A stretch of 62,906 bases of DNA, filler included, from Sanchytrium tribonematis (Eukaryota), in the NCBI GenBank assembly GCA_018985235.1. It is 11 parts of 11 records of this genome, joined end to end, with 100 filler letters (N's around TTAATTAATTAA, not from the genome) between each part and the next. Parts side by side here need not be neighbours in the genome. Positions count along the whole stretch, not along the records: positions 22,373 to 24,900 come from JADGIG010001030.1; 10 more parts are not named here. One strand, 5' to 3'. Made by a program: the position numbers and the translations under genes. The notes under the pieces were generated by a model. The model saw nothing but the letters and a program-made list of their open reading frames with translations, was not told the DNA's origin and ran no database searches. How positions within the stretch are numbered: the stretch's first letter is position 1; the number at the start of each line of letters is the position of its first letter. Below, piece by piece: positions 3,278 to 58,593 of this stretch.

Positions 3278-3417
3278 GTTTCTATTTCGCTCCTTTAAAA
3301 ATCAAAATTTAAGTGATTATTTTAAAAGCTCATTTCTCTAGCAACAATCATTATATCACATTATGGTAAATCAATTCGTCAAGAATCAATCTAAACAATT
3401 ATTTTAGAAACATAGGG

Positions 3418-7998: not shown

Positions 7999-10900
7999 TT
8001 ACTGAAGCTGCTTGATTCTATCATGCATTTGCTTCTTTGCCAACATTTTGATCAAAGTCGTCTTTTCCATTGAAAGAAGATCGCTGTCAGTAAGATTTAA
8101 GCCGCATTTCTTGGTTCTTGTCAAAAATATATATTCATCCAAAATTCTTTCATCGCTTGTTCTTAAAAAATCAAATATGGGGTGCTTACCCTCTGTTAAA
8201 TCCATTGACAAAATTAGACCTACTAAAAATCTAGCATTCATGAGCTCTAGAATATCAAAATCTTTCATGGTATTCAGTTTTTCTCTAAGCAGTAATTTCA
8301 AAACAAAGTGAATTGTTTGCAGCTGAAATCTTGTTTTTATTCTCTTAACATTGCTAAACCAATAATTTAGTAATAAATCGGATTGCATAGCTTTAATATC
8401 CAATAAATGTAACTTCTGAAGATAATAATCAGCTTGAATTTGGGCGCACTTTTTTTGAATTTTGGAATATGCTACATCTAGTTTGCCACTTGATTCAAAT
8501 TGCTGGAAAAAATTAAGAAAATATTTAGTGAATTGAAATTTTTCTGGACCCAGTGGCATTGAATCTAACTTGCTGGCCAGGAAAGCAATTGAGAACTCAA
8601 GATTGTCCATGCAATCAATAAGTTGAGTGAATTTTTCGGATTGTTGAGATAAATAGCGCTCGGGCTTTAGCACGTGTACCTGCCATAATAAACCTCTACT
8701 CTTAATGTAGTCGGGATAATTAAATGATGTTAAAATCTTTGAAAATTTCATAAATTTTTGATGTATTTCAATCAACTGGCTGCATTCCTTAAAATCTATG
8801 ACAGAATTTAGACAAGGATCATTTATATTCAGCGATGATACATCAATCATTTTGCTCAGATAAGGATTTTCAATAAAATTTCGTAGAGTTTCTAAATTAC
8901 TTGATAAATTGGTAAATATTAACAAATATTGATCTTTGATCCAATCCTGCATATCAAAACTCGCACAATGTAGTAACTGCAAACACCCCACATAATTAGA
9001 ACAATTAATGTAATGATTGTATAACGACTCGTTAAATGAATACACATTTTTCAAATCAGAAGAAATATTCAATAATTGTGATAAGCGGCTGCTCAAAACA
9101 TAAAATTTTTCTTCTTTAAACAAATTGAATAAATAGGGCATTTCCGCTGTGGCATCCAGACAATCTTGAACCACAAGTCTAATATCTAGTGAGGATTCGT
9201 CATTTAAAGAAATATTAGCTTCAAATTGAGTACAAATTTCAAGTATGTTCATCCAGAAAAGAAGGGACTTGTCGCAATGAACCAGAAACACATTAACGAA
9301 GTAGCTCAAAATTTCGGAAAATGTCCAATCAGGGTCACTTGTCAAAATATGACATAGAAGAAGCTGTGGAATTTCAGGTTTAATATAAGAAAATTGCTTT
9401 GATGTCAACAAGTGATTGATTTTCAAAGATTCGGTGTATATTGGATACTCTGGAGATTGGAATTTTTTGATTTTGTCATCATTTCGAAATTGGAATGCAG
9501 CACTAACTAAATTCATTTGAAAAATTGGATCTAAAAACTCACATTGTTCATAAGCGTCTATAAAGACATTATCATCAATGTCTTCCTCAATTTCGCTCTG
9601 AAGTTGGCTTAAATGTGATAAATTTCTTGGCTCTTGCAACTGCCATTTCTTGACTTCCTCAATAGTCTTTTGGCTAAGGTGAATATTAGAAAAGTCAGGC
9701 AAGTGTAGTAACATATCGTCATACCTTAAAGATTCCATAACAATGTCGTCAATAGTAATTTGTAAGTAAATATCTAAATGATTATTGTCAAAAATGAAAA
9801 TAAATTCGCTAAGTTTCCCATCTTGACAATATCGAATCATAATTAAGCTGAGCAGCTCAAAGATTCCAGATGCTTGTACCTGAAACTTAAATATTTCCAT
9901 AATCTCAATTAAAATTAACATTTCGTCTAAGGAGTGGAAATTATTTTGCTTTGCTATCAATTGTATATACTTGGAGAAGGAGTAGTCTGTTGTGCTTTTT
10001 TCATTGATACTATAATGTTTGAGATCATCAAAATACGATATACGAACAATTTTTAAGAGTTTGACTCTTGAATCAAATGAGAGCGAGTTAATTTTTGCAG
10101 AGACCACATTTAAAACATATTCGTAATCTGAATTTAATAATAAATACTTTAGCAAGCTTTCAGAGTCTGCCAATATATCATGATTGTTAAGTAAAGATTC
10201 GAAGATTGAATTATAAGATATAATATTGTCCAAATCAATAAATGAAGAAGTCTCACTAAGCTGCTTATAAAGCTCTAATAGTTGGATCAATTCCTTAAAA
10301 TAGGAATTATTTTTTAAATATTTTATGAATTGTTTTGGAAATTGTAATTCTACGGGACCATTGTAACACACGTTCGCCAAAAGGCTTTTGATGCATTCGA
10401 TATTAGGGTCAGAATCTTCTAATATTGCAGAGTCTGTTAGTATTGCGGGACTTTCAAGGTTTATCACTTTAATCAATTTTGGAGTTTTCAGCAAGATCAA
10501 CCCATCTGAAATGTCAAATTCTATTACTTCGTCCAACTTTAATTTATCCACAAAATACACGCAGAAATCGTTTGAAAGAAGATTGTACTGTAATTTCATT
10601 AGTTCTATATTCAGACTTCCAGCAACAGAATTGGCATTTTGATTAAAATATTTATAAATCCGATTTTCATAGCTAAAGCAAGATAATTCCTTATCGAACT
10701 GATAAATGGGTATAAGAGATTCTAGATCGTACATTGTTCTGCCTATAACAACAACAAGTTCTGTTGCTGAAACTATTTTCTGATTTTTTAGAGATAAAAT
10801 TCCAGTATTTACACATATTGTGCTTTTGTAAAGTTTAATTTGAAGCCCAACTAGCACCAATAACGTTTTATATATGCCACCGATGACAAATATATGATCT

Positions 10901-11205
10901 GGCTTTTGATCAAGCTTAATTTCGAAGACAAGCTTTTCACAATCCAAACAAAATATTGTTTTCCCAGTTGTATATATCAACATCTTTGGATCAGAGTGAG
11001 CTAGTTGTATTGGGTTTGAATGATACAATTTATAGCTTTCTTCCACTTTTTTATATAGTCCATTTTTCGTTGCAATAAATGTTTTATTCATTGCCAAAAT
11101 GTCAGACTTGAGATCGAGTGTAAGTTTTTGGTTCGTATTCAAGTCAAATCTCTCAAGGCTGCAACCATTCGCCTGCCAAACAATATTTTCAATCTTCAAA
11201 AACAT
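7999..11205 (-). CDS. Large hypothetical protein, probable N-terminal beta-propeller plus helical solenoid
   Basis: 1068-aa uninterrupted ORF; beta-rich N-terminus, Leu-rich helical remainder; family not recognised. Confidence 0.6.
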   Translation of the reverse strand: MFLKIENIVWQANGCSLERFDLNTNQKLTLDLKSDILAMNKTFIATKNGLYKKVEESYKLYHSNPIQLAHSDPKMLIYTTGKTIFCLDCEKLVFEIKLDQKPDHIFVIGGIYKTLLVLVGLQIKLYKSTICVNTGILSLKNQKIVSATELVVVIGRTMYDLESLIPIYQFDKELSCFSYENRIYKYFNQNANSVAGSLNIELMKLQYNLLSNDFCVYFVDKLKLDEVIEFDISDGLILLKTPKLIKVINLESPAILTDSAILEDSDPNIECIKSLLANVCYNGPVELQFPKQFIKYLKNNSYFKELIQLLELYKQLSETSSFIDLDNIISYNSIFESLLNNHDILADSESLLKYLLLNSDYEYVLNVVSAKINSLSFDSRVKLLKIVRISYFDDLKHYSINEKSTTDYSFSKYIQLIAKQNNFHSLDEMLILIEIMEIFKFQVQASGIFELLSLIMIRYCQDGKLSEFIFIFDNNHLDIYLQITIDDIVMESLRYDDMLLHLPDFSNIHLSQKTIEEVKKWQLQEPRNLSHLSQLQSEIEEDIDDNVFIDAYEQCEFLDPIFQMNLVSAAFQFRNDDKIKKFQSPEYPIYTESLKINHLLTSKQFSYIKPEIPQLLLCHILTSDPDWTFSEILSYFVNVFLVHCDKSLLFWMNILEICTQFEANISLNDESSLDIRLVVQDCLDATAEMPYLFNLFKEEKFYVLSSRLSQLLNISSDLKNVYSFNESLYNHYINCSNYVGCLQLLHCASFDMQDWIKDQYLLIFTNLSSNLETLRNFIENPYLSKMIDVSSLNINDPCLNSVIDFKECSQLIEIHQKFMKFSKILTSFNYPDYIKSRGLLWQVHVLKPERYLSQQSEKFTQLIDCMDNLEFSIAFLASKLDSMPLGPEKFQFTKYFLNFFQQFESSGKLDVAYSKIQKKCAQIQADYYLQKLHLLDIKAMQSDLLLNYWFSNVKRIKTRFQLQTIHFVLKLLLREKLNTMKDFDILELMNARFLVGLILSMDLTEGKHPIFDFLRTSDERILDEYIFLTRTKKCGLNLTDSDLLSMEKTTLIKMLAKKQMHDRIKQLQ

Positions 11206-11227
11206 AATTTATAAAACTGGGAGTCAG

Positions 11228-13537
11228 ATGATATTTTCGGAAGTCAACTTGCCTTCAATATACCCGAAATCATCCAGAGCGGATTGCCAATTTCAAGTAC
11301 TTAGACAAGGCTCTGAAATAGGAAGGGCAGATACAATTCTAATAGGTCAAAATGGAAGCAACATCAATGCATTGCATCTTTTTCAAGGTATCTATTCTTG
11401 GACTGAGAATAGATTATGTCTGGATTTCGTTACTCAAGAAGAATTTGTGATTATTACATGTGCAGAAGAAGATTTAGAGAAGGCAGTAATTATTATGTGT
11501 AGATTAAAATTGCAAAAATATATTTCTACGATGCAGCAAAGATTTAATTCATTTGGTTTTCCAACCAATTTAAATTTTGATGCAGATGCAACCAGTTCCA
11601 ACAATTTTGATCCTGATTATGCAACATCCGGGTATTTAATGATGAATTATGCCAGATTTGGTAATTGCCCAGTTTTAATGATAAGGATTATATGTTCCCT
11701 TTTCTTGAGCAATTCATTTGATAAATTTTTGGCAATGGTGAGAAATTTGTATGAAATTTTGAAAAATACTGATAAAGGAAATGTGTTGATGAAGACCATA
11801 TTGAATTACATATATGATCATTATTCAGAAAAGCACTTGTTTTTGTATCAGTTATACAAGAGTAATTTTGAATTAGAAGATCTACCGATTAAAAAAAGAC
11901 AATTCCCATGGTATGAAAAATTATGTCAACAGTTTTCCACCAATTCTGATATCAATCTTTCAAAAAGCAAATTAATAGTTGCCGCTGTTTTTTATGGGTT
12001 TAAGTCAAAACTGTACGCAAAGTCGATTGATATGGCTCAAGAGTATTGCGATTTGTACGGACAATTATCTGATGACACCACCATCCATCTTTTATTTAAA
12101 ATGTCATGTAGTTATTGGGAGTTGGGCCGGAAGAATGAAGCTAGCTGCATTGCAGTCCAAATTGTGTCAGTGGTGCGTTTCCCGGAAATGACCACAAAAT
12201 TATTTCAGATAATATTGGATACTGGAGTAATCGACGGTAATCCCATCGTACCAGTAGTTAATCAGGCAGATCTGACGTTTTATAAGGAGAACAAACTTGA
12301 CATGCTTGTCAAGCTAACTCTTTTATATAGTGAACTTCAGTTTCACGATGACTTCAACTCATACTTTAAAAAATACATTCAAGATCAAACCTGTCGCGCG
12401 AGAGATGTTAAATTAAAGAAAATGAAATTCTACATTAAACCAAAAGTTTATAAGTCAGGAAATATTATAATTGAGGCTCTTGCTTGCTTTCAGAGTCATA
12501 TCTATTTAAATTTTGATTCTCTAGGGATTTTCTTGGGAGACGTATTTGTCAATGTAGAAAATGTTAAAATTCAAGGTCCTTGTAAAGATCAATTGCAATT
12601 AAGAGGTGAAAATGTTGGTGTGGGATTTTATCAGGTCAATTCTGTTGTCGCAAAATTAAAGAATGCTGAAATTCATTTTACTTGCGATCCAGCTGATATT
12701 CGCGTGGAAAAATTTGTTGAGAAAAGTCCAATACTTCTTCATTTTGATCAAGTGGCTTTGCAAGAACAATTTAGACACTCAATTGATAATTTTAAAGATT
12801 ACAAAATCTTGTCATCTTCGCATTCGTCTGGCATTTTAGATTTCGATTGTTATGTTGAAGAATGTTCGCTTATCATATCATTTATCCCCAACAATCACGG
12901 GTCTAATTTCTTTGAGATTTATTATGGTAACTCTGAATCCTCGTTTCGTTTATACCATCAATTCACAGCAATAGTTGCTCTGAGTTGTACAGTGGATTTT
13001 GTCTTTTGTGGAGACGCTTTATTTTTTTTAAACTTTAAAAACAGGTCAAGCAATGATGTCGAGATAAAATGCGAATATGATATCTCAGGAGAGTCTCTTT
13101 TACTCAAAAGTACGTTAGAAGGCTCCCTTCCGTGTCATTATGAAGAGATTCCATCCGCCATCACATATTTTTGGAAAAGTTGTGGAAATGAGAGATGGAT
13201 TTCTACCAATGTTCCAATTTTGGTAGCGAATGATTTGTATACATATATAGACTCCATCGGAATTGTTCAACCAGGCCAAATATTTGATATAAAATATTGG
13301 GTATTTAATATGACGGGCAAGTCCACTGGCGTGGTGGACTTTGTGTTTCCTGATGGGCCTTTTACCCTTGTTAGTGGTCTGCGCAATTTCAGCGATGAAA
13401 TCAAAGATAGAAAATTAAAATGCTACAGATACTCTGCAATGATAGAAGAAACCGGTAGCTATATAGTACCTTTGATCCAAATGGAAAAGCTTAAATTTTC
13501 GGATTTCGAAATATTATGTTTGTACCCAGAAAAATAA
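11228..13537 (+). CDS. Probable large TRAPP subunit (TRAPPC11/Gryzun or TRAPPC10-like)
   Basis: Long ORF, likely ATG 11228; C-terminal Ig-like pattern GQIFDIKYWVFN...FTLVSGLRNF...YRYSAMIEETGSYIVPLI resembles TRAPPC10/11 C-termini. Confidence 0.45.
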   Translation: MIFSEVNLPSIYPKSSRADCQFQVLRQGSEIGRADTILIGQNGSNINALHLFQGIYSWTENRLCLDFVTQEEFVIITCAEEDLEKAVIIMCRLKLQKYISTMQQRFNSFGFPTNLNFDADATSSNNFDPDYATSGYLMMNYARFGNCPVLMIRIICSLFLSNSFDKFLAMVRNLYEILKNTDKGNVLMKTILNYIYDHYSEKHLFLYQLYKSNFELEDLPIKKRQFPWYEKLCQQFSTNSDINLSKSKLIVAAVFYGFKSKLYAKSIDMAQEYCDLYGQLSDDTTIHLLFKMSCSYWELGRKNEASCIAVQIVSVVRFPEMTTKLFQIILDTGVIDGNPIVPVVNQADLTFYKENKLDMLVKLTLLYSELQFHDDFNSYFKKYIQDQTCRARDVKLKKMKFYIKPKVYKSGNIIIEALACFQSHIYLNFDSLGIFLGDVFVNVENVKIQGPCKDQLQLRGENVGVGFYQVNSVVAKLKNAEIHFTCDPADIRVEKFVEKSPILLHFDQVALQEQFRHSIDNFKDYKILSSSHSSGILDFDCYVEECSLIISFIPNNHGSNFFEIYYGNSESSFRLYHQFTAIVALSCTVDFVFCGDALFFLNFKNRSSNDVEIKCEYDISGESLLLKSTLEGSLPCHYEEIPSAITYFWKSCGNERWISTNVPILVANDLYTYIDSIGIVQPGQIFDIKYWVFNMTGKSTGVVDFVFPDGPFTLVSGLRNFSDEIKDRKLKCYRYSAMIEETGSYIVPLIQMEKLKFSDFEILCLYPEK

Positions 13538-16110: not shown

Positions 16111-18022
16111 CTATGACATCATCGTGCCTTCAAAATGCTCGAGACATGTCTTAACACGCCCTCGAACATCTGCGTCAGGATCAGATAAATGAGACCTTAA
16201 CTTTTCAGAGAACCCGTATTGGCGAAGCTTTTCTGTTCTTTGAAAGCTTTCCTGCTCTTCTTGCCATGTCAAATTAATGACTGCCCACACTGCAGCAACC
16301 CTAATACTAGGCTGCTCGTGGGATATATAATTATAAAGCGCTTGTATTAATATTTCAGAAGATAGGATTGCAGATTTGTGTGTATAATTACCAGTTGCAA
16401 CATTTACGACTACATAGAGAGCCTGTTGTAAAACTGGAGTGCTGACATTTCTAACTTTGGTTTCCAATATTTGGATGAATTTTGAAGCACCTATGCCATT
16501 AAATACATCTTCTATATCCTAAATAAATCAAAATTACCTTTTCCTCCATACAAGCCAAATTACGTATTAAATTCAACGCGTGTTCCTGTACCTGTGGATC
16601 GTCCTCAAGTAAATTAGTAAGATTTGAATATGTGAGGCAAGCCATAACTCGCCTTTTTAGGTCCGTTTTAGATTGGTATACTAAATTTTTCAAAGCCCAT
16701 ATTGCATTTAATCGTAGCTTTGAATTTTTGGACTTTGATAATTCAACTAGCTTTTCAATTCCTCCATTATCAGTGACCTCATCTTTGACAGGACTAAAAT
16801 CCAAAACAATATTACAAAGTGTGGCGCAAGCTGATATTTGAACCTCTTCACTCTGATCCATGAGCAACTTTAAAATCGACTTAACTATATTTGCATCGAC
16901 GAGAGCAGTCCTGAGTGTTTTGACTGATCTAGAAAGACTTCTGGTGAGCTGACATGCAGCAGATCTAATAGATGTTCTACTGCATTCTAAAAGTCTAGAA
17001 ATGACCGATAATACTTTTGTATCAATAACACGCTTCCTACAATCCTCTCTCAAACTCGCAATTGCAGCCAAAGCTGTCAGACTAGCCTCCACATCTAGCA
17101 TTGTAGAATCTGAAGAGTCCTCTGTCCAAGTTCGAACTACGTCACTCAATTTCGGAATTGCTTCTGCTTCAGAAGCATTTTTCTGTAAATCTTCATTCCC
17201 GGCGGTGAGGTATGCTAAAACAAAAGCGGCTTTATACCCAACCTCAGTTGGAAGTAGTTTGACTAAAGTTGGCAACACTATCAAGTGTATATCTTTTGTA
17301 ATATTACTTGCCACATTTGTCGCAAACAAATTGACGATACAAGAACAAACTATAAGCTTATCGCTGTGATTTTTCATGGTTTTTACCAAAGTCAAGAGCA
17401 ACTGTATTAAATCTGTTTCTCGTTGATTTACTATGAGCTTCAAGCCAATTACGTACTTGGAAATATCTTCATTTTCTTTAATAACCGCTGCAAGGGCCTG
17501 AAGACAGGTAGATATTAGTTTCATATTATCCGATGAAAGTAGCTGTATCATTTTGTCTATGCCTCCACTTTCTGCAACAATATGCTGGTGCTGTTTCGAT
17601 CTACAAATTTTTGATAGTAATTCACAAAGAACTAAGCTCAATTTGAATGACGAACCTGTCTGAGACAATTGTAAATTATCGACGATGCTAAGAATGTTGG
17701 CTTGATTAATTGGAAAATTATGAGTGTCATAGATGCTACGCAGGCATTTGGCGCTGGCCACTTTGGTCTCTTTATTATCTACTTTGACAAATAAATCCCA
17801 AATCATTTCTGTTGCCTCGTACGAAATTTTAGCTTCTGGCATTAATAAACAAGATGAAATAAATATCAGAGTGTGTTGCAATAAATTTGGGGCTTTTTGA
17901 TTTTCTAAAGTTTTAAGCAAAGCATCAAATGTTCCATTATTAATGTATTTTAGCTTTTCAAATGGATTTCCTATGACCTTATTGCGAAGGCTTTTAATTT
18001 CTTTCTCATTTAAAATCTCCAT
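16111..18022 (-). CDS. ARMC8: Armadillo repeat protein ARMC8/Gid5 (GID/CTLH complex); two exons, intron 16519-16537
   Basis: LRNKVIGN, SLSRSVKTLRT, LCNIVLDFSP, LRLNAIWALKN; removing the 19-nt intron fuses ORFs 16499-18022 and 16111-16467 (MEEK|DIEDVF...LETKV). Confidence 0.9.
16519..16537 (-). other. 19-nt spliceosomal intron GTAATTTTGATTTATTTAG
   Basis: GT-AG; removal joins the two ARMC8 ORFs in frame. Confidence 0.9.
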
Positions 18023-18052: not shown

Positions 18053-19640
18053 TTACTCAGACATTGTTGACGCTGTATCCCATTCAGAGTCCTCTTGAAG
18101 TTTATCAAAATTAAATTCCTCTGTTTTACATTCAAACTGTAGACTACGAAACAATTTCAATTGATTCTGAAGCTTAGCTGTTTGAAGAACAATAGTAATC
18201 GTTGATTCCATTGAAAATAATGGTAGCACATACTTTTTTAACATTTCTATAACGTCTGCTTTTTTGATTGACGGTAAACCTTCTATCGATTTTGACAAAC
18301 GATTTTTTGACGATTTTAACAAAACGGTGCGTTGAAAGCACTTAGCAGCTGCGCTTGCGAAAGTTTTCTCTTGCCGGACTTGGGAATATATTAGCGATGC
18401 TTTGGCGCCCTGAAAATGCTCATCCTCCAGTAGAGAGGGGTTATTTATATATTCAGTAACAATATTTTTACAAGCTAGATATGCATTGAATGGATCCACA
18501 CATTCCAAAATGTACAATTCTAAAAGAGAAGCTTCCACGGATCTATTTATACTACATCCATACGCTAAACCTGCTCCTCGAACTTTTCTCCAAAAAGGAC
18601 CTTCTGTCGCCTCCAGTATTTCCAAAGCTAAGGAGAGAGCCAATCTTTCGAATGAATCTAGGTGGTTTTTAAGTGAGTAGGATGCGTATAAGTAACCAGA
18701 GTCTACCACTTTGGGTGCGTAAAAGATACACTTTCCCTTTTGCAAAATTAAAAATTCTTTGTCTTTCACGGACCTTAACTCATTCGAAGCCTTGTTATTC
18801 TTAAATTTTGTAAAACTATTTAAAGCTATCTTAGAAGGCTCAGGACTTCCCTGGAAATGGAAATATGCATCGGATCCTTGTAAATTTAACAGCAAGGTTG
18901 TTAGATCCAAAATAATATCATCAGCTGGCTTCGCAAGTAGATTTGAAACCACATGGTGTTGATTAAATAACGAAAATAAAGGCCTATTCGATTTTTTAGA
19001 AAAGTTTCTATATTGAAATAAAGAATCGACCAAGTATTGGCCATCTCTTTTTAAATTTGACAGTTCCTTTTTCATTTTCTCAAGTGCGCTGTTGATACGC
19101 TCTTGATTTAAATGAAGATTAAACAGATTTTTGTATGCCCAATTAACTCCTTCATTGACCATCTCTTTTCGAACTCGAAGTCGAATATCTAAATATTCTC
19201 CAAAAAATCCTGGTTTGAACGATTCCGAATGCAATCCGCAGCCAACACCAAATTCTAAAGTTTGATCTTCTAAAGAGTTCAAAACTTCCTTTAAAGGAAT
19301 GACTTCTCCATTCAAATAGAGTTCACAATTAAATATTAAAAAAGTCAGCAAAGGCAAAAGTTGCTTGTACTTAAGATCAATTGACGAAGTGTCTATCATG
19401 ATCCGAATAGAACAAAATTCGCTTTCATATACATCCAATTGTGCAAAACCGCGAAAATCAATTGAAATTCCATCTACATAATCTTGCAAAGCATTGTTTT
19501 CAAGTCTATAGACAGAAGGAAATCTAGCAGTTTCTATTTTATAGGGTTTCACACTTAAAGTTACATTGGGAAAACTCTCAAAAAGAGACTGAGGTACAGG
19601 CCTTTCATTATTCTTAATAGCAGATTTTAATTCTTCAGCA
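18053..19640 (-). CDS. M16C-type metallopeptidase-like protein, C-terminal part (5' truncated by contig end)
   Basis: EGPFWRKVRGAGLAYG motif of PreP/M16C-like proteins; frame open to the gap. Confidence 0.75.
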
Positions 19641-19740
19641 NNNNNNNNNNNNNNNNNNNNNNNNNNNNNNNNNNNNNNNNNNNNTTAATTAATTAANNNN
19701 NNNNNNNNNNNNNNNNNNNNNNNNNNNNNNNNNNNNNNNN
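19641..19740. other. Artificial contig spacer (44 N + TTAATTAATTAA + 44 N); identical spacers at 22273-22372, 24901-25000, 27527-27626, 30148-30247, 32756-32855, 35362-35461, 37966-38065, 40567-40666, 43167-43266
   Basis: Identical 100-nt blocks with a linker giving stops in all six frames; intervening contigs decrease from 2532 to 2500 nt. Confidence 0.98.
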
Positions 19741-20248
19741 CACTCAAAACAAATTGCCTAAATATGATGCAATTGATAAGTTTGATTGTTTTATATCTTA
19801 TACTGATTAATCTGTTCTGATTTTTTCAAAGTCAATTTTATGGAAGGGGTATGCCCATAATTCAATTTTGACTTAAGGAAATGATAGATATGTAAGATTT
19901 CCATATAGTGCATCTTAATTTGGGTAAATCGAAGAAAAAGACATTTGAAGTACTTTGGATGAGTCATTTTGACTCGATTCTCCCCGTGTTTGCTCCCTTG
20001 TTCTTTTGAGTTTCTAAACAAAATGCATGTGATTATGCTTTTGAACTCATTGTTCAATGTATAAATACAGTAAGTTTAATGCAGCATAAATAATTTATTC
20101 TTTCGCGACGGTTGGAAATGGGACAAATGGAGGGGTAATTTACTTCATTTAGATTTCAATGAGTCACCTGGATTGTAGCTGTCTGTGGGGGGAGAGTATT
20201 ATGATTTTTTTCCACCCTCCTGGATGCATGATATACGGATTGAATGAG

Positions 20249-21750
20249 CTAAAGAAGCCAAACAAGTACAAATACTGTGTAATAAAAGGGGATTTGAGTG
20301 ATTTTTGACTGGTTTGCAAGTGATGCAAACAATTTTGCACTTTGTTGAAGTCGCAGAATGGATCTTCGAACAGTTACTGCATCAATAAATTCATTATGCT
20401 TATAAAAAAAGGGTTCTATGTTAATAAAACAATTTACTAAATAGTCTCTCCCTATATTGTTTTGGCGGCGTCTTGAGATCCATAAACACTCTCTCAAATG
20501 GTCTAGTTACCTGAGGAAATTGTAATTGTATTCCCAGATTCTCTGGCATTTTTGAACGTATACAAACGACTGATGCTTTCGAACTGGGATTTATTAATTA
20601 GATACTTGGAATTTTGCTTCTCCAAGAACCTACATTCCAACAACAACTCATCTAAAGCCAAAAGCACTGTATTAGAATGTTCTTGATGTTTTGGAATCCG
20701 TTTAAATGGTAAATGGTCAACTTTGTTGAGCATTTCTTTGCTAGAAACTTCTCCACCAGCATTTCCCCCAATTTTTAGCATGAAAGGAGGTAAATTGCGA
20801 GACAATACATCGGAAGGGTTTTTAGTTCCCTTAACATATACAATTTCAAAATCAAAAACAGCCATTCTTAGACACCAACGACCTAACCTGCCGAATTGTG
20901 GATTATGAAACAGCCATTTAAGTGAAATCATGTCAGAATATACGATGACTAGTGCACCAATGAGGTAGTATTTGAAATGCTCAAGTCTCAGAAGAATGGC
21001 ATATGCTTCAAGCTCATACGATTTATATTTTCGTTCCAAAGATGTAAACTTACGGCTTTCATATCCAATGGGTTGATGATTTTGCATCAAAACAAAACCC
21101 GCAGCTTCACCAGACGCATCAACATAAAGGTCAAACGGCTGTCCGAATTTGGGCTGAACTAATTGTAGATTTCTAGAGATTTCTTTTTTTATTGTATCAA
21201 ATGCTAGCTGCATTTCGCCAGTTCATATAAATGACTCGTTTGTTTTGGATATTGGTCAATGGAAGAACAATTCGAGAATACTCTGGAACAAAATCTTTGT
21301 TGTAAACACACAATCCCAGAAATGACTTCAAGGATAAGAAATTCTTCGGTGCAGCCATTTGTGTGATTTTCTCAATCTTTTCTAACTGCATAGTAATACC
21401 CGTACCACTAATGGTGTGTCCCAGCCAGATTACTTCCTCCATTCCAAACACTTTGACAACTTACAATTCATATGAAATTTTGACAATCTTTCCAACACTC
21501 TGTCCAAGCGGTCACGCAATTCTGCAACAGTATCCGCATAAATCAGTATATCGTCGATGTAATTGCAAAGTATATCACTCAGACCATCTAATATATTATC
21601 CATTAATCTCTGATTTTCCTCCGATCCACTTGCGACGCCAAATGGCAATACAGTGAATTGCTTTAATCCCAACGGAGTATTTATAATGTTATACTTTTGA
21701 TATTCAGCCCAAATCATCACTTTCAAACCACCGGGCAACACCTTGGGCAC
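20249..21750 (-). mobile_element. Decayed Ty3/Gypsy LTR retrotransposon pol fragment (RT and RNase H), frameshifted
   Basis: TPLGLKQFTVLPFGV, YIDDILIY, WLGHTIS, LKSFLGL, YVDAS...PIGYESRK...ELEAYAI...GRLGRW...SDVLSR across three frames. Confidence 0.9.
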
Positions 21751-21787
21751 TAGATTGGTTTTAATTGGATGTCTACTTTCTGGTTAA

Positions 21788-21823
21788 TAGCCATCAATGT
21801 AGCCACCAATATAGCCACTAAAT
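21788..21823 (+). repeat. Imperfect 12-bp tandem repeat x3 (TAGCCAYYAAWN)
   Basis: tagccatcaatg tagccaccaata tagccactaaat. Confidence 0.7.
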
Positions 21824-22372
21824 GGGCAATTTTTATGCGCGTTTTAAAGTAGACTTTCACAATTGACAATTCAAAAATTGTAAACATTCTACATGGTTTC
21901 TTTTTTGTTAATGCCAGAGAACGGCGTTTTTCATTATTATTCGTATTAAAGGAGTTTGCGATGAAACATCAGCATGTAAACTGCCAGGGGGGGGTATTTC
22001 ATGCTAGAATGACATTATGGTCATCATTTGTCAGATAAGCCACTGTGACAAATCCGTGTAACAACCTGTACGGTGCAACTACGAACATTAGGAATAGTCA
22101 AAAAATGACAGATTCCGTTTAAAAATTTCAAAATTTTTCATTTATTACATAATATCTAAATCTTCAAAATAAATGACTGGCTCTACATGCTTCAACAAAT
22201 AATCATAAAATTGAGTAATAATTAATATTCTGACAAGATATGAAAATGGCCTCAATTCCCAATCCAAGGAGANNNNNNNNNNNNNNNNNNNNNNNNNNNN
22301 NNNNNNNNNNNNNNNNTTAATTAATTAANNNNNNNNNNNNNNNNNNNNNNNNNNNNNNNNNNNNNNNNNNNN

Positions 22373-23240
22373 TAGAAATCAATTCCAGAGTAATGAAGTA
22401 TTCTGACTGAATGAGTCTTCCGGTATTAGTACTTTGTGACAATTTAATAGGGAAATTAATTATATTTGATATTGGAACAAGATTCAGCCTTGCACCATTT
22501 AATTCATATATCTTGCTATCTATCATCTCTGTAATTGATTTTCTTCGACTAAAATTAAACAAGCTAAACTGTGTACCACTGAAGTTTGAAGTTCTATATA
22601 ATGACAGTCTGACGGAATCAATAATCTTGGTAGAAGGATTCTGGATTTCATATTTGATAACAATAACATCGTTCATTAGATATCCTTGTTTTACGAGCAC
22701 ACATTTAAATGTAATTTTTGTTTGTAGAAATATGAGAAATCGCTGCCGTACAACAACAGAAGATTGAATTGATGTGCATAATTCTGGTGTAAGACATAGT
22801 GTGTCTAGCACCATAATATATCTTCTGTGTTTCAATTTTTTAAACTTTTTAAGCATCACTACTTCAATATAATAATTAATAGATCCAAATTCTGATTCCA
22901 TAGTTGATGGTATGTGTGCAGAGGGAATTATGTAAGTAAATTTAAATTCATGTGAACCCTTGTCCAAATCTGATTCAAATCCAAAAAAAGTTGGGTTTTC
23001 ATTTCCAAATAAAATAACCTCTTTCTCAAATATAATGTTTTTTGATCTAAAATTGCTAAATTTTGTTGAAAAGGTAGGGCCCATTAAATTGAAATGCGTT
23101 TTTTCTATTCCTTTACATTTTATCCTAAGAGAAGAGATGGTACATTTTTCCTCTAATGACACTTTAACTAAGCCACAAACTGCCTCGCCTGGATAATACG
23201 GTCTTTGAGTATCAATAATCAGATCCAAATTTATTCCCAT
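22373..23240 (-). CDS. Alpha-arrestin domain protein (3' truncated)
   Basis: YYPGEAVCGLV, LDKGSHEFKFTY.IP, PSTMESEFGSINYYI, KQGYL..D.I.I..EIQNPS. Confidence 0.85.
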
Positions 23241-23373
23241 ATTATCTCTGCAAGTTTCAGCGGAGTTCGTTTGGGTGTGCCATTATTTGGAAAGCGCAAA
23301 TCATAGTTAACGAGTAATTGAAATCAATGAAAATGGCAGAATCTAAATTCGAGAAAATACCCCAACTTTATTT

Positions 23374-24900
23374 ATGCAATTTTTCAAACGTATGATGAAT
23401 TATAAAGTGGATTTGCTATTAGATATCGAGCAGTTCATCTTCACAGGTACTGTTAAAGTCAGCGGTAATGTCAGGGAATTGAACGCCAAAAATTTAACAA
23501 TTCATAATGCGAAGTTAGAGGAGGGAAATGTTGTTTTACCAGATTCAAACGAAATTCATTTTGATGGAATCTTAAATGACCAAATGGTTGGATTCTATAG
23601 ATCAAAGCTTCCTAGTGGTGATCATATGTTTTCCACGCAAATGGAAGCACCATATTGTAGACAATGCTTTCCCTGCGCCGATAATCCTTCGGAAAAAGCA
23701 ACTTTTGACATAAGCCTTATTATTCCAGATCATTTAGAAGGATTAAGTAATATGCCAGTTTCTAAAGTCGAACCTTTTCACGGAAAATTGCATGAATATC
23801 AAAGTTTCTCTCCTAAATTTCCTTTGAAAAAGGTGACTTTCCATCAAACGCCAAAAATGTCAACATATATTTTGGCTTTTGCCGTTGGAAAGTTTTACAG
23901 AAATAGCAAACAGATTCTCTCAACAAGTGGAAAATACATCGACCTTAGCATTGTTACTCCAATTTTGGATCAGCTCAAGTCGACAGATTTTGCCATGGAA
24001 GTTTCTGAAAAATGCCTAAAATTTTTTGAAGAGTCTTTCGCAGAACCCTATCCGCTACCAAAAGTTGATATGCTTAGCGTGCCAAGTTTTGCTATGGGTG
24101 CTATGGAAAATTGGGGACTTATCACTTATCGTGAAAAAAGTCTTTTATTTGATCCCAAAACATCTGATATACATTCTAAGCAATGGGTTGCGGGAGTGAT
24201 AAATCATGAGCTGGTATTTTAAATTAATGTAGGCTCACATGTGGTTCGGCAATCTCGTGACAATGAAAGATTGGGACGATTTGTGGTTGAATGAGTCATT
24301 TGCTACTTTTATGGGAAATATGGCCTGTGAAAATGATTTTAAGGAGTGGAATATATGGACTCAATTTTTGGCCGATGAGTTTACACGAGCGCTTTCTTTA
24401 GATGCTTTAGAAAGTTCACATCCTATACATGTTCCAATTTCTAACGTCGACGAGATCGATAGTATTTTCGATGCAATAACTTATTCTAAAGGAGCTTCTT
24501 TGATTAAAATGCTCTCTAGTTGGTTGACTTTGCCAGTGTTTTTAAAAGGTGTTAAAAGTTACATTCAAGAATTCAAATATGGGAATGCTTCTGCTGACGA
24601 TCTTTGGAAACATCTTTCCGTTGCTTCTTCCAAAGACATCAAATCTTTTATGGACGGATGGATTTTACAGACTGGATATCCCCTGATCACGGTCGAGTCT
24701 CAGATCAGTGGCAATGAACTTAGCCTTGACCTAAAGCAAGAGCGATTTTATGAATTAAAAAAACAGGCATTAGGTACTGAACTATGGTGGGTCCCACTAA
24801 AAATTAAAGTCTTGTTTAAGGACGGAAGCTTTAAAACCCAGCAAGTTGTTTTTGACAAAAGGTCATCCAAATTCGATTTCAAATTCGAAAAAGAAGTCAA
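23374..24900 (+). CDS. M1 family aminopeptidase (Ape2/puromycin-sensitive type); intron 24214-24232; 3' truncated
   Basis: GFYRS, TQME..CRQCFPC.D.P, GAMENWGL; HELAH..W restored by splicing; LWLNESFA, YSKGASL. Confidence 0.95.
24214..24232 (+). other. 19-nt spliceosomal intron GTATTTTAAATTAATGTAG
   Basis: Splits the HEL|AH zinc-binding motif; contains an in-frame stop. Confidence 0.95.
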
Positions 24901-27626: not shown

Positions 27627-28525
27627 TACTGGAACATTAAATGGGCCATTCCCTGCCAATTTGACGCGATTATCATTCTCAAATAATCAATTGACTGGCA
27701 ATTTACCCCTATTGCCTCCAAAAGTAGTCAATGTATTTTTTGATTTCAATCAATTGACTGGTCCAATTCCAGCGCAATATGCAACTCAAGTAAATGGCTC
27801 GCTAGTACTTAACTCCAATGCGCTCACAGGATGCCAAAATACGACATTTGTTTGTTCTATTTGCAAATTGAGTGAAAATCGATTGCAGGGTGAATTAACC
27901 TTTAAGGCGCCTACTGTATTGAATCTGACATCCAATTTAGTCACTGATGTGAATGTCATGAATATGACTGCCATTTCTACCTGTGATTTGAGTAATAATC
28001 CAATGTTAAACACGATTTCTGCAAAATCATTCGCCAGTAAATGCAGCTCTACTAATGCGTACGCTGATCCTGGTATAAATTGTGATGTATCTACAGTTGC
28101 ATCTGCGGCAGTGCTTAGCAATAGCGACAGCAGTAGTAGCAGTAGCAACAGTGAATTGAATTTTGCTTCTTCTGTTATTTTTGTTTCTGACCTATCTAGC
28201 CTGGAAGTCGACTCAAACTCAGTGGTCACACGTATTTTGTATTCATTTAGGATCTATTTTAGGACCTAATATTGCCTCTAAAAGTGTAATAACTACACTC
28301 TCTAAAAACGTTGTAAATATCAAATCTGTGGTTTCTACTAGAATTACTAGCTTACATATCACCAGCTTGATCAAATGGGAGGGTAAATCAGAGCTAGAAG
28401 CCATTCAATTCAAATATTTAATGTTGGTCAAATTGGGCATCAATTTAATATTTATTGGAATTATTTTGGCCAAGTTGCCATACAAGAGAGATGCTACAAG
28501 ATTGTCAATGTTTAGTAAATTTTAG
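27627..28525 (+). CDS. LRR protein with Ser-rich stalk and C-terminal TM helix (5' truncated; intron 28232-28250)
   Basis: Plant-type LRR units NxLTGxLP; splicing joins to a frame ending LMLVKLGINLIFIGIILAKLP. Confidence 0.75.
28232..28250 (+). other. 19-nt spliceosomal intron GTATTTTGTATTCATTTAG
   Basis: GT-AG; joins ORF 27661 to the TM-encoding frame ending 28525. Confidence 0.8.
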
Positions 28526-28544
28526 GTAATTATATTTATTTACA

Positions 28545-29413
28545 TTAATCAATTGATTTGTGATGACCAGGGAATATAAAATATTTACATGCTTTTAAAA
28601 ATCTGTCATCTTCTTTCACTCTATGAATTAGAATAGTCGTTGGTGTAAACGGATGTGACCAGCTTCCCTTGTTATCACCCTTAAAATCTGGAGAATCATA
28701 AAACTACATAAAAATGAATTTACATCTTCATCTTCAGATATGAAATGTTTAATCTTATTGCCGTGTTTTAACCAACTAGCCAGTAATCCGTCTTCTTGTC
28801 CAACAATATGCTGTCTCGCATACTCATCCTTTGCGATAAAATCAACTAGATCCCAACTTAATAAATAGCCCATTCCTGCTTGGAATATGGTCCCTTTGAC
28901 GTGTCTACCATAATAAACACCAGTAAAATCACTACCCACTTCTTTTTTCAATTTATTAATACGGCTAATGAGATTATATAAATGAAGAAACACGTCATCA
29001 TCTGTTTTAAACAACATTTCATATTTTAAATTGAGAGATGCCCATTTCACGAATGAATATGTCTTGCCATCATCTAAATTCTCTTCTATATCCATTACAA
29101 TAATATCATTGTAAAGAGAAGATTCCATATCTAGTAAATTCTGTTCAAATTCATTTTTGGGTTTACCAAATATAAATTTGACCGTCATTCCAGCTGGAAT
29201 ATCTCGCATATAACAATTTCTAATTAATGATCTGCGCTCATATTTGCTGATCATGGTTAAAATACCAACAAAGATTGTATTTGGACCAGAATTGGATTGA
29301 TGATGGATAACAGATTGATGTGTGGGTTGCTGGCCATCTTTATTGGTGACTAATAATAGTAAAACCAAGATGATAATACCATAAGCATAGAATTTAAAAG
29401 ATTCTCTTTTCAT
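28545..29413 (-). CDS. GT31 beta-1,3-glycosyltransferase (type II membrane); intron 28704-28723
   Basis: N-terminal TM, RRSLIR, EENLDDGKTY, KTDDD, GMGYLLSWDLV, QEDG; spliced tail FYDSP...WSHPF..TILIHRVK. Confidence 0.85.
28704..28723 (-). other. 20-nt spliceosomal intron GTAAATTCATTTTTATGTAG
   Basis: GT-AG; removal restores a GT31-like C-terminal HxxK-type motif. Confidence 0.85.
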
Positions 29414-29433
29414 GGATATTTAGAGTTTCAGAA

Positions 29434-29697
29434 TCAAATGAAATTTATTTTCAAGTCGCGTATAATAGATGGTAAATCAATGGGATAAAGGAGGTCGTGG
29501 TCATATTGGTTGATGTAATTATATCTTGTAGAGCGCACTGTAGAGACGCGTGACTCAAAATCATCAATTCTTTCTAATAATTCGCTCATTTGTCGTTCTA
29601 TGTCTTCGAATCTTTGAAGAATAGTATCTATTATCTGTGATCTATTAGAATCTAATCTTATTAAATGCGAGTGACGCATATCTTTGATTCTATCCAA
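29434..29697 (-). CDS. Small hypothetical coiled-coil protein
   Basis: ORF with heptad pattern; no family recognised. Confidence 0.4.
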   Translation of the reverse strand: MDRIKDMRHSHLIRLDSNRSQIIDTILQRFEDIERQMSELLERIDDFESRVSTVRSTRYNYINQYDHDLLYPIDLPSIIRDLKINFI

Positions 29698-29974
29698 TTG
29701 ATTTTATTCTACGCGAAACCAATCAGCATTTGATGACGATGTGACGACATTTTGTGATTCGTCATAGACACCAAAATAAATGAAAGCCGTATCTCTCATA
29801 AAATGTTGAAAATCTCACATCTTGTGTTTTGCAAATTCAAACGCTGTAGCAATCTCCAGGTCTGCAAGCCAATCAAAATTGTCTGATAACAGAGATAATG
29901 TCTGTTTCTCCATTTGATTGGGTGACAGGGCTTCTGTAAATGGATTTTGTTTTGAATTCGCCGTCTCCTGAGAC

Positions 29975-30147
29975 ATGATGAAACCCAACCGACCGACTCG
30001 CAACTGTTTGTGGGACAATTGTGACCGTATATTCCCTAATGATGAGATGTGTTTAAGACACGTTAGATTGCATCATCTTGATAAAAATAGTAGACGCTGT
30101 TATTGGGACAGATGCACAAAAACAACATCTACAAAATGCAATCTAAA
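29975..30147 (+). CDS. C2H2 zinc-finger protein (3' truncated)
   Basis: CLWDNC...F....C..HV..HH followed by CYWDRC. Confidence 0.75.
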
Positions 30148-30247: not shown

Positions 30248-30612
30248 TATACTAAAATTGTGTAATTCTACAGTCTGCTTTAGCAGAAATGGATGCGATC
30301 CCGTTACAACCACTAAATTGAGCACGAGTACGAAATCAGTAACGCGTTCTAAAACTTGGGGTAATACATGGGACTCAAATGATGACGAAGACGGCAATGT
30401 AACTCTTATTTATTTAGCAAGAAGACTGCGCAACTGCTGTCAACAACAATTCTACCATGACAACCACGAAAACAGTGAATTATGAAGCCATCAAGCAGAG
30501 TTATTCAGCGTTACAAAGCATGTCTTCCATTGATGCTGCACAAGCTACCCATGCCAACAGCGGCAATCATTTATTGATGATCTTGTATTTGATTCTGTTA
30601 ATGTTGTTTTAG
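30248..30612 (+). CDS. 3' end of putative GPI-anchored surface protein, paralog 1 (intron 30399-30417)
   Basis: Spliced tail KTVNYEAIKQSYSA...HANSGNHLLMILYLILLMLF nearly identical to paralog 2. Confidence 0.75.
30399..30417 (+). other. 19-nt spliceosomal intron GTAACTCTTATTTATTTAG
   Basis: GT-AG; restores the frame conserved with the paralog. Confidence 0.85.
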
Positions 30613-30781
30613 TAAATATATTTATGGAGAAGTGAAACGAAGTCTTTTCATTTACTGGTACTCATATTTAAAATCATCCAATTTTTGTATAACTAGTCAT
30701 ATATATGCACATGTCAAACTTTATATTCCATAAATTCAAAATTCTCTCTCAATGTGGCTTTATTCTTGAGTTTCTGTTAAC

Positions 30782-31925
30782 ATGGGACAAACTGAGTCAA
30801 CGTGTATCAATAATGACAAACCTGACTATTTCTTAATAAGTTCCAATTCCACAACGTATGATCGCGTCAATTACATTGATCCCACTAGTAATTGCACCTA
30901 TAAAATGTATTTTGACTATGATTCTGACAAGAAGATCCAAGAGCCTCATCTAGCTTTTTTTTACTCTAAAAGAGAGTATCCTTTAGGTAATTACACGCGT
31001 CAACAATTAAAAGATGGTGTTTCTATTGAATTACCTGAAAGTGAGGTTACTGACTTTGTATTTGACTTTAAGACGACTTTAAAGAGTTTTGAGTCATTTG
31101 AAGTCGCCATTAAAAGAATGGATGTTTGCAGAACAAAAGATGGTTCTACAATCTGTTATGGTGCGCATTATTGCCCTCCATTAACGAATCAAACAGTCAT
31201 AAATACGAAATGTCAGAAATATCCAATTACGGAATATATTATAGAGCCACTCGATACAAAAGTCAAGAGACAAGTCACTCCATACTACTATGAAGGCTAT
31301 TACACTAAAATATTCTTTAGTGATTTCGGATTACCCGATTTAATGGTCAATCAAAAATTCACCATTTATACGTCTTTAAATGCCCCACAACCATTTGATG
31401 AAGTCCAAATTAAACGGGGTGGCCCTAATAACAATGGATATGATACCCATACCAAATGGTGGATGGAAACATATGGTGTTGATATCGAAGGCAATTCTCA
31501 ATATAATATGACGTATTTCTATATTGGTACGCATCAGAATATCAGTGCAGTCGTAAATAGTGTTAAATTATGTAATTCAACCCATTGTTTCACCAAACAT
31601 GGCTGTGGAAATCCAACAACTACGAATTCTCTCAAAATGACGAGTACGCAAAGTAAAACATGGAGTAAATCATGGATGGACCAAGAAAATGATGACAATG
31701 AGGATGGTAATGATACTGTAAATCATGCTTATTTAGGTTAATTGTACGACTACTTCCAATTCAACCACTGCAATGGCCAAAACAGTGAATTATGAAGCGA
31801 TTAAACAGAGTTATTCTGCTTATTTGCAGAGCATGTCATCTATGGATGCAGCACAACCAACACATGCCAATAGTGGAAATCATTTAATGATGACCCTGTA
31901 TTTAATCATGTTGATGTTGTTTTAA
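30782..31925 (+). CDS. Putative GPI-anchored Cys-containing surface protein, paralog 2 (intron 31718-31736)
   Basis: 319-codon exon 1; spliced hydrophobic C-terminus NHLMMTLYLIMLMLF. Confidence 0.75.
31718..31736 (+). other. 19-nt spliceosomal intron GTAAATCATGCTTATTTAG
   Basis: GT-AG; restores the frame conserved with the paralog. Confidence 0.85.
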
Positions 31926-39177: not shown

Positions 39178-40566
39178 ATGACCTTTCACTCAGACTCAGA
39201 AGATGATCAGCCTAAGCTGTTGCGTGTTGATTCAAGAATGAACAGAAGAGCATCAATGAAATCAAACCTAAGCCATATGACAAAAGAAGAATTTATTTGG
39301 GAGGACAAGGATGAAGAACTACAGCATTCTAGACTAACCAAATGGATTCCGGTCATATCTGTAGTTATTTTGCCGATTTTTCTGGTTCCATATTTTGTTG
39401 GAATTGGAATGGGAGATTTAAGTACGTTTGATAATTCCAAAAATCCTAAAATTGAATCTTCTGATAGTTCAGTAGGCGATCTCAATTCAAATGGTATAGT
39501 TGTATCTCAGGAACTGATGAGATGGGGAATTTGGCTTACTAGTATTTATAGCATTTTTGTTGTAAGTTGGGTTTCTCTCCATTTTTTACCATTTATTTTT
39601 TATAAATTATATATCCTGGTCACTAAGCGTAAATCTGAACGATTCAAAGACTTATTCGAATATTTAAGAGCTTTAAGGAGATACATTATTTGGCTTTGTA
39701 TCGCAATTTGTAGCAACATCGTTTACGAGGTTCTTTGGAACACCCTAAATAGAGGGGGGGATGACAGGGCTGCACCAAATTATATCGTAATTATTTCTTA
39801 CCTTTTAAGAATATTTGTATTCTATAGTATTTTCAGACTTGGTGAAAAATTGTTAATGATGGTTTTGTTTATACATTTAAAGCATAAGACTTTCAAGGAT
39901 AGGATAGAGGCATCCAAAGTTGCACTTAAAACAATAGAACATTTGGAAGTTCAACTTGATAGATCACACGATTGGAAAGAAAACAAGAATCGTTTGTTGA
40001 ATGAAGGAAGCAAACTATTTTCGTGGATCAAAAGTGGACAAGTTAACGAAATGGATATAACCTCAGACATAAATGCCAAGAGATTAGCCAAAAAATTGTT
40101 CACAAGTTTATCTAAAGACAAACAGATCATCAGGCCTGATGATTTTTATCCTTATTTTTCAGATGTCGAAACTTCCATGGATGCATTTTATTTGTTCGAC
40201 AGGGACAGAAATGGAGATATTAGTAAGAGTGAAATGAAGACAGCCATCACTTCAATTTATCAAGAAAGAAGATTTATTTTGAGTTCTTTTAAAGACATTA
40301 ATGATGTTGTCAAAAAATTGGATCGAATTCTCTTTACTATAGTTTGCATTATTACAATTGTTTACGGCTTCACTGTATTTGGCAACAATGTCCTCGCAGC
40401 TGCAGTCCCTTTACTAAGTGGATCATTGGCTTTAAGCTTCATGTTTGCGGAAACCGCAAAAGAGTTTTTTAATTCTTTATTATTTTTATTTGGAACTCAT
40501 CCTTTTGATTCTGGTACTAATTATTAATTCAGGCGACATTATTATGATCAAAGACGTTTATTATCG
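39178..40566 (+). CDS. MscS-like mechanosensitive channel with EF-hand (Msy1/2-like); intron 40514-40532; 3' truncated
   Basis: Multiple TMs, AKRLAKKLF, EF-hand FDRDRNGDISKSE, SFMF, HPFDSG|D restored by splicing. Confidence 0.9.
40514..40532 (+). other. 19-nt spliceosomal intron GTACTAATTATTAATTCAG
   Basis: Removal restores the MscS motif HPFDxGD and removes a stop. Confidence 0.9.
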
Positions 40567-58374: not shown

Positions 58375-58593
58375 TTCAAGGGGTCAAACATTTTTTGAAT
58401 TTGGGGTATTTTGTACAAAAAAAGGAGTTGATCTATTTTTATCAATTTTTTGATTGATACAACATCACTATTTTGTCCATTTTGTTTAGTGAAGATTAAA
58501 ATATCTAATAAAATATACGATTATATTTGGAATTATTTATTCTTATTCATTTCTGATGCATAAAGGCATTCCTGAGGCGAATTTGATATTCTT

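What the first reader, a model, noticed from the sequence alone, without database searches (positions are those of the whole stretch)
24214..24232. Fixed-position branch point: A at -6 and T at -8 in all seven mini-introns
Seen: the 3' ends are TTTATTTAG, TTAATGTAG, TTCATTTAG, TTTATGTAG, TTTATTTAG, CTTATTTAG and TTAATTCAG (consensus YTNATKYAG), and all introns start GTA. Known: YTNA fits the U2 branch-site core, and an A six nt from the 3' end is also reported for Stentor tiny introns. Inference: branch site fused to the acceptor with no polypyrimidine tract and a lariat loop of only about 14-15 nt, convergent with ciliates.
Basis: partly seen in the sequence, partly recalled or inferred. Interest (0 to 1): 0.75.

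Follow-up and report, generated by a model that had tools for sequence, protein, structure and literature searches.

The report
Nineteen-base introns in a parasitic fungus
Genes of this tiny algal-parasite-type fungus are interrupted by introns only 19-20 bases long that all carry an adenine exactly six bases from their end, likely the branch point, a layout known from the ciliate Stentor and the yeast Yarrowia but not found reported at this size in a fungus.

Summary
Observation confirmed. Seven GTA...YAG introns (six of 19 nt, one of 20) have A at -6 and T at -8 in 7 of 7. Four are fixed to the residue by homologues; two others are paralogues. A at -6 is far beyond chance (6e-5 in 200,000 shuffles; 0.0015 for any column). 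T at -8 alone is weak (0.02). The organism groups with the sanchytrid fungus Amoeboradix gromovi. Intron-blind protein calls of relatives read into such introns: 7 of 8 distinct tails decode to 19-24 nt introns with A at -6, and one does not. A second haplotype changes only -5 and -4. The heptamer reads TAYTNAY, a T-rich TACTAAC, so branching at -6 with a 14-15 nt loop is likely but unshown: no RNA, lariat, U2 or genome data. The geometry is known (Yarrowia, heterotrich ciliates). The 19-nt size in a fungus was not found in my searches. A. gromovi keeps U2AF and BBP but has no annotated Slu7 or Prp18 (weak lead).

The parts
24214..24232 (+). 19-nt intron, phase 0, inside the HEXXH motif of an M1 aminopeptidase; predicted branch A at 24227
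   Evidence: present without gaps or differences in run X1 contig
23374..24900 (+). M1 (puromycin-sensitive type) aminopeptidase gene, two exons, cut by contig end
16519..16537 (-). 19-nt intron, phase 0, in ARMC8; predicted branch A at 16524; same site broken in three relatives
16111..18022 (-). ARMC8 (armadillo repeat) gene, two exons
28232..28250 (+). 19-nt intron, phase 1, in an LRR-like protein with a hydrophobic C-terminal stretch; predicted branch A at 28245; not anchored by homology
   Evidence: joins 201 + 90 open codons; 8 frame-restoring GT-AG choices in all
28704..28723 (-). 20-nt intron, phase 0, in a beta-1,3-galactosyltransferase; predicted branch A at 28709; second haplotype differs at -5 and -4 only
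28545..29413 (-). Galactosyl_T (PF01762) gene, two exons
30399..30417 (+). 19-nt intron, phase 0, in first of two tandem paralogues of unknown family; predicted branch A at 30412
31718..31736 (+). 19-nt intron, phase 0, in second tandem paralogue; predicted branch A at 31731; 4 of 19 bases differ from its paralogue, none in the last 8
40514..40532 (+). 19-nt intron, phase 1, in an MscS-like EF-hand mechanosensitive channel; predicted branch A at 40527
   Evidence: A. gromovi orthologue P0209 continuous across it
39178..40566 (+). MscS-like channel gene, cut by contig end

Best explanation
These are real 19-20-nt GT-AG introns in genes of a sanchytrid-type fungus, with an adenine fixed six bases from the 3' end that is likely the branch point used by an otherwise ordinary U2-type spliceosome. 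Shown: the introns, their ends, the fixed A, its 3' anchoring across 19-24 nt in relatives, and the taxon. Inferred: U2 GUAGUA would pair with the heptamer at -11..-5 (TAYTNAY, a T-rich TACTAAC using G-U wobbles) and bulge the -6 A, which would attack the first G to give a lariat loop of 14 nt (15 for the 20-nt intron). The YAG three bases on would then be the only AG in reach, so no pyrimidine tract or scanning is needed, and the second-step factors Slu7 and Prp18 might be dispensable. The whole intron is GTA, about 5 spacer bases, the branch heptamer and K-YAG. At least the MscS intron is probably an old intron shrunk in place rather than a new insertion.
For: Residue-exact junctions for 4 of 7 introns. 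A at -6 7/7, P 6e-5 at that position and 0.0015 in any column; decoys 2 of 64. Y at -9, A at -10 (5/7) and T at -11 (5/7) extend the match to the U2-pairing heptamer. The -6 register gives the best pairing score in 5 of 7 introns. Relatives' read-through tails: 7 of 8 distinct ones decode to 19, 19, 19, 21, 21, 21 and 24 nt with A forced at -6, including a GC-richer one (P0364). The decoder recovered the window's own two test introns. Null rate for the Y-T-n-A-T-n-TAG ending is 0.073 per tail. A second haplotype has two substitutions in the 20-nt intron, at -5 (T to C, a better U2 pair) and -4, and its three flanking exon changes are synonymous in the spliced frame. A. gromovi's published annotation lists Prp8, SF3B1, U2AF1, U2AF2, BBP, Prp22 and the debranching enzyme Dbr1 (PMC8371127 supplement file 4). 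Low intron density (7 in about 43 kb of coding sequence, 36 genes) fits the link between intron poverty and fixed branch-AG distance (PMC2483917). 7 of 110 distant MscS homologue ORFs break after the same glycine.
Against: No RNA, lariat, U2 snRNA or whole-genome data were available, so neither splicing nor branching was seen. Only 6 independent window introns. In 2 of 7 introns another A pairs slightly better with U2 (-10 in 16519; -13 in 40514). The A. gromovi ARMC8 tail (P0124) has only a 15-nt in-peptide solution, with T at -6; it fits only if its stop lies inside a longer intron. Three tails also allow a 27-nt solution without the A. The tails come from three gene sites, so they are not independent; the stop codon is assumed to be TAG in four of them; most of the relatives are unnamed. 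The second haplotype comes from a run that may be the source of the window. Three introns lack homology anchoring.
Confidence: 0.85

Rival explanations
1. The introns are real but branch at a different or flexible adenine, most plausibly -10, which would give a 10-nt loop as in Stentor; the -6 A is a secondary signal.
For: A at -10 in 5 of 7; it is position +10 of a 19-mer, Stentor's branch position; better U2 pairing score at -10 in one intron and at -13 in another.
Against: -10 is T or G in 2 of 7 window introns and G in 2 relative tails, while -6 is invariant across 19-24 nt. A or G at -10 is what the TACTAAC register centred on -6 predicts.
Confidence: 0.07
2. The YTNAYKYAG string is an extended 3' splice-site motif read by protein (as U2AF reads the TTTCAG end in C. 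elegans), and does not mark the branch.
For: The motif abuts the AG; A. gromovi keeps both U2AF subunits.
Against: The conserved letters follow the U2-pairing pattern (Y, T, n, A, Y preceded by T, A), and a 19-nt intron leaves little other room for a branch helix. One relative decodes to a near-canonical ACNAAY at this register.
Confidence: 0.05
3. Chance or selection bias: AT-rich short introns, picked by eye, happen to share an A.
For: Small n; two introns are paralogous; T at -8 alone is only P 0.02-0.04; the any-register test on three anchored introns gave 0.09.
Against: Four junctions are fixed by homology without the motif. Shuffle and decoy controls, relatives and the second haplotype all keep the A.
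Confidence: 0.02
4. The segments are not spliced: they are assembly errors or frameshifting insertions in pseudogenes.
For: No transcript evidence could be examined.
Against: GT-AG ends, residue-exact restoration of conserved motifs including a catalytic HEXXH, the same breaks in other species, no gaps in run X1 contigs, and synonymous variation in the downstream exon frame.
Confidence: 0.01

Closest known systems
Heterotrich ciliate tiny introns (Stentor coeruleus 15-16 nt, PMC9505925; Blepharisma undulans 15 nt, PMC13685798; passages read)
   Same: GTA start, T-rich body, conserved A six bases from the end; the Blepharisma motif ends TTTATWTAG, almost the same string; low intron density.
   Different: Four bases longer here (loop 14-15 nt versus 10-11); all seven window introns are non-3n whereas heterotrich introns are mostly 3n; unrelated lineage (fungus).
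Anchored branch point without pyrimidine tract in Yarrowia lipolytica, Trichomonas, Giardia (Irimia and Roy 2008, PMC2483917; passages read)
   Same: Yarrowia has ACTAAC plus 2 nt plus AG, which puts the branch A at -6 and T at -8: the same geometry, in an intron-poor fungus.
   Different: Yarrowia introns are long (table values near 200-270 nt) with a strict ACTAAC. Here the branch motif is degenerate and T-rich, and the whole intron is 19-20 nt.
Chlorarachniophyte nucleomorph introns, Bigelowiella natans 18-21 nt (PMC6009652; passages read)
   Same: Same length range, GT-AG ends.
   Different: No discernible branch A is reported there; they are intron-dense remnant algal nuclei.
Microsporidian introns of about 25 nt (PMC6349667) and myxozoan introns, median 22 nt (PMC13644364); passages read
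   Same: Ultrashort introns in reduced parasitic opisthokonts; myxozoans keep U2AF1 and U2AF2.
   Different: Shorter here. In myxozoans the candidate branch As move away from the AG as length grows, whereas here the A stays at -6.

Membership tests
U2-type spliceosomal intron | GT...YAG ends whose removal restores a conserved reading frame | tested here: met
   7 of 7 GTA...YAG; 4 of 7 residue-exact by homology; 3 by frame only
U2-type spliceosomal intron | Branch-site sequence able to pair with U2 GUAGUA | tested here: met
   Heptamer TAYTNAY, scores 3-5 of 6 against the canonical U2 hexamer; the organism's own U2 was not seen
U2-type spliceosomal intron | Removal from transcripts | not testable with these tools
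   No RNA run was available to lay on the junctions
U2-type spliceosomal intron | Lariat formed at the predicted adenine | not testable with these tools
   Needs lariat sequencing
U2-type spliceosomal intron | Major spliceosome encoded in the genome | tested here: inconclusive
   No genome held; no Rfam hit in the window. The relative A. gromovi has Prp8, SF3B1, U2AF1/2, BBP, Prp22 and Dbr1 annotated
Anchored branch-AG architecture (Yarrowia type) | Fixed branch-to-AG distance across introns of different length | tested here: met
   A at -6 in 19- and 20-nt window introns and in 7 of 8 relative tails of 19-24 nt
Anchored branch-AG architecture (Yarrowia type) | No pyrimidine tract between branch and AG | tested here: met
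   Two bases between the A and YAG in 7 of 7; the upstream part is T-rich (54 of 92 interior bases)
Anchored branch-AG architecture (Yarrowia type) | Strong ACTAAC consensus | tested here: not met
   0 of 7 window introns carry ACTAAC; the motif is degenerate and T-rich
Anchored branch-AG architecture (Yarrowia type) | Intron-poor genome | tested here: met
   About 0.16 introns per coding kb, 7 in 36 genes, window only
Heterotrich-type tiny intron | Length 15-16 nt, mostly 3n | tested here: not met
   19-20 nt, 0 of 7 are 3n; works like them but is not homologous

The most novel reading that the evidence does not exclude
Sanchytrid fungi have the shortest spliceosomal introns among fungi and animals (mode 19 nt), missed so far because their genomes were annotated without introns. 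They arrived independently at the Stentor-type 3' end, and their spliceosome has co-evolved by dropping the second-step factors Slu7 and Prp18 and the G+5 contact at the 5' splice site, so the branch helix alone sets the acceptor.
Probability: 0.3. Interest if true: 0.78.

Novelty: new member of a known kind. Interest (0 to 1): 0.55.

Why it matters
It adds an independent fungal case near the lower size limit for the spliceosome. Unlike the same-sized nucleomorph introns, the branch position is visible here, so the minimal lariat loop (14 nt versus Stentor's 10) and the need for Slu7/Prp18 at a 5-nt branch-to-end distance can be tested. The repeated arrival at -6 in Yarrowia, heterotrich ciliates and sanchytrids suggests a structural floor on branch-to-AG spacing. 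In practice, public sanchytrid proteins were called with an intron-blind tool (PMC8371127 methods passage) and some are cut at these introns (P0124, probably P0210, and perhaps the two-ORF BBP). Gene-loss claims for the phylum may need re-annotation with a minimum intron near 18 nt.

Tried and rejected
No whole genome is held, so no genome-wide logo and no U2/U6 search. No RNA holder listed; this says nothing on expression. Rfam: 0 hits in the window. Scans for DNA of relatives: viral contigs nothing, prokaryote genomes nothing, JGI metagenomes only 4 distant loci at 33-38% identity and 44-50% GC with no break at the HEXXH site. A motif-blind ORF-joining scan listed 151 candidates and a motif scan 49 matches; by inspection I accepted no eighth intron. 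Rejected: +20135..20152 (18 nt) and -20416..20437 (22 nt), which match the motif but lie in a decayed Ty3/gypsy region full of stops, and matches inside open conserved frames or on the antisense strand. In-frame 18/21/24-nt candidates in genes without fetched homologues could not be excluded. The alternative 20-nt cut -28688..28707 in the galactosyltransferase was rejected by homologue alignment and relatives' break point. ESM Atlas gave no usable hit for the tandem paralogue. Literature: sanchytrid+intron (2 papers), Amoeboradix+introns, Sanchytrium+intron, Sanchytriomycota+splic (42, 3 listed) and ultrashort introns/fungi/zoosporic (89) showed no description of these introns in the listings. 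In the three papers I searched inside (PMC8371127, PMC10459994, PMC10406608) 'intron' occurs only in a reference title or not at all. A 2022 aphelid genome paper is not held; two supplements of PMC8371127 were too large and one was unreadable, and they could mention introns. I have a vague recollection of short mean intron sizes being quoted for small zoosporic-fungus genomes; I could not trace it and it is unverified.

Full report
Setting. The window is eleven contigs joined by N-linkers with a stop-codon spacer. It is about 33% GC and densely packed with eukaryotic genes. No whole genome is held. The ARMC8 protein's nearest named relative is Amoeboradix gromovi at 68% identity. On a 29-protein quick IQ-TREE tree the window, A. 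gromovi and two unnamed proteins form one long-branched group with SH-aLRT 100; the careful search did not finish. The MscS-like protein's best hit other than itself is also from A. gromovi, at 60%. The organism is therefore a sanchytrid or close kin; the species is not determined.

The observation. Four are fixed to the residue by homologues, independent of any motif. The aminopeptidase intron splits the HEXXH motif at Pfam position 76. The ARMC8 exons abut exactly against Rhizophagus, Paraphelidium, Amoeboaphelidium and a chytrid. The galactosyltransferase exons abut against Spizellomyces and others. The MscS exons match the continuous A. gromovi orthologue, and 99 of 110 homologues continue with the same x-G-D. 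The other three join long open frames but have 2 to 8 frame-restoring GT-AG choices each, and two of them are paralogous. Aligned on the 3' end: A at -6 7/7, T at -8 7/7, T at -5 7/7, Y at -9 7/7, A at -10 5/7, T at -11 5/7. In 200,000 interior shuffles A at -6 arose at 6e-5 and any all-A column at 0.0015 (0.006 with one paralogue dropped). T at -8 alone arose at 0.022. Among 64 decoy GTA...YAG 19-20-mers, 2 had both letters. On only three anchored introns the any-register test was 0.09, so the window alone is a small sample.

Independent evidence from relatives. The public sanchytrid proteins were called on genomic contigs with TransDecoder (PMC8371127, methods passage), so they read into introns. 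Four related ARMC8 proteins (three distinct) and four related galactosyltransferases stop just after the window's donor site with a tail that starts with valine, as GTN predicts. An A. gromovi MscS paralogue does the same one base from the window's site. I enumerated every GT...YAG length of 12-40 nt compatible with each tail and with the next exon residues expected from the alignments. The method returned the true 19- and 20-nt introns for the window's own two proteins. Of 9 relative proteins (8 distinct), 7 gave a shortest solution of 19, 19, 19, 21, 21, 21 or 24 nt with A forced at -6. T at -8 was forced in 4 and undetermined in 3. Against this: the A. gromovi ARMC8 tail gives only a 15-nt solution with T at -6, unless its stop lies inside a longer intron, and three tails also allow 27 nt without the A. 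The four 3n cases assume the stop is TAG; the chance that such a tail ends in this pattern is 0.073 each. The tails come from three gene sites and are not independent. The galactosyltransferase relatives are unnamed (50-64% identity, against 47% or less for named chytrids) and were not placed on a tree.

A natural variant. Run X1, which may be the source of the window, holds the aminopeptidase intron unchanged. It also holds two contigs across the 20-nt intron, one identical and one with five differences. Two lie in the intron, at -5 (T to C) and -4 (G to T), leaving -6 and -8. The three exonic ones are synonymous in the spliced frame; the two downstream ones would change residues in the read-through frame. 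So -5 is Y rather than strictly T.

Mechanism. The heptamer at -11..-5 reads TAYTNAY, a T-rich form of TACTAAC that can pair with U2 GUAGUA through G-U wobbles. The -6 register scores best in 5 of 7 introns, and another A scores slightly higher in 2. I infer branching at -6, a loop of 14-15 nt (up to 19 in relatives) and use of the adjacent YAG with no pyrimidine tract. Slu7 is unnecessary when the branch is 9 nt or less from the 3' site (PMC10158995, passage). In the published eggNOG table of A. gromovi (3,755 rows held; the second species' sheet is cut at 171 rows) I found Prp8, SF3B1, U2AF1, U2AF2, BBP, Prp22 and Dbr1. I found no Slu7 or Prp18 by name or by KOG or KEGG number, the numbers being recalled. 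This is a weak lead: only about half of the proteins are annotated, calls are intron-blind, and C. merolae lacks both factors despite long spacing. G at +5 is absent in 7 of 7 window introns and present in 1 of 7 decoded relatives; that G+5 is usual in fungi is recalled. On origin, 7 of 110 distant MscS homologue ORFs break after the same glycine, which suggests an old intron that shrank here and was lost in the A. gromovi orthologue. The aminopeptidase intron has no counterpart in its two closest relatives, so gain or loss there is open.

Comparison with what is known. Stentor places the branch A at position 10 or 11 of 15- or 16-nt introns, predicted from sequence (PMC9505925, passages). Blepharisma's motif ends TTTATWTAG (PMC13685798, passages). 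Yarrowia lipolytica has ACTAAC plus two bases plus AG and no tract, which is the same -6 geometry in long introns (PMC2483917, passages). Nucleomorph introns of 18-21 nt show no branch A (PMC6009652, passages). Encephalitozoon introns are about 25 nt (PMC6349667, passages) and the shortest animal median is 22 nt (PMC13644364, first third plus passages). So each ingredient is known. What my searches did not find (inside-paper searches) is any description of these introns in sanchytrids, or of 19-nt introns in a fungus. The library lacks most subscription papers, one relevant paper was not held and three supplements were unreadable. Earlier scan notes on Rozella (25-32 nt) are unchecked leads.

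Verdict. It is a new, independent member of the known tiny-intron, anchored-branch kind, notable for its size in a fungus and for exposing truncated public annotations. Interest 0.55.

Noticed in passing
window 19641-19740 and nine similar joins: The window is a concatenation of 11 contigs with N44-spacer-N44 linkers; adjacency across linkers means nothing.
   Followed up: yes
all seven introns, positions +4 to +6: 5' splice sites keep only GTA; G at +5 is absent in 7 of 7 and T at +6 present in 6 of 7. This may go with a changed U6 or U1.
   Followed up: partly
PMC8371127 supplement file 4 (A. gromovi): BBP/SF1 is annotated as two adjacent ORFs on one contig, perhaps split by an unannotated tiny intron; Slu7 and Prp18 are not found.
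   Followed up: partly
window 27627-30147: Run X1 has paired contigs with many single-base differences (31 listed), as from two haplotypes or strains; possible diploidy.
   Followed up: partly
window 22373-24900: The X1 contig differs at 17 places, all within about 220 bases of this contig's ends.
   Followed up: no
window 19741-22272 and about 47700-50800: Decayed Ty3/gypsy-type retroelement pieces (RT, RNase H, integrase remnants); two chance matches to the intron motif lie in the first.
   Followed up: partly
window 30248-31925: Two tandem paralogues with a Ser/Thr-rich stretch and a hydrophobic C-terminus, no Pfam family above cut-off and no Atlas hit; both carry the same 19-nt intron.
   Followed up: partly
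window 3370-4917, 7999-11208, 11036-13537, 18053-19640, 57499-58383, 60294-61421, 61649-62906: Long ORFs (294-1069 aa) with no Pfam family above cut-off.
   Followed up: no
proteins P0123-P0125, P0204, P0210, P0361-P0364: Public protein records of relatives end at intron donor sites; such truncations may be widespread in sanchytrid proteomes.
   Followed up: yes
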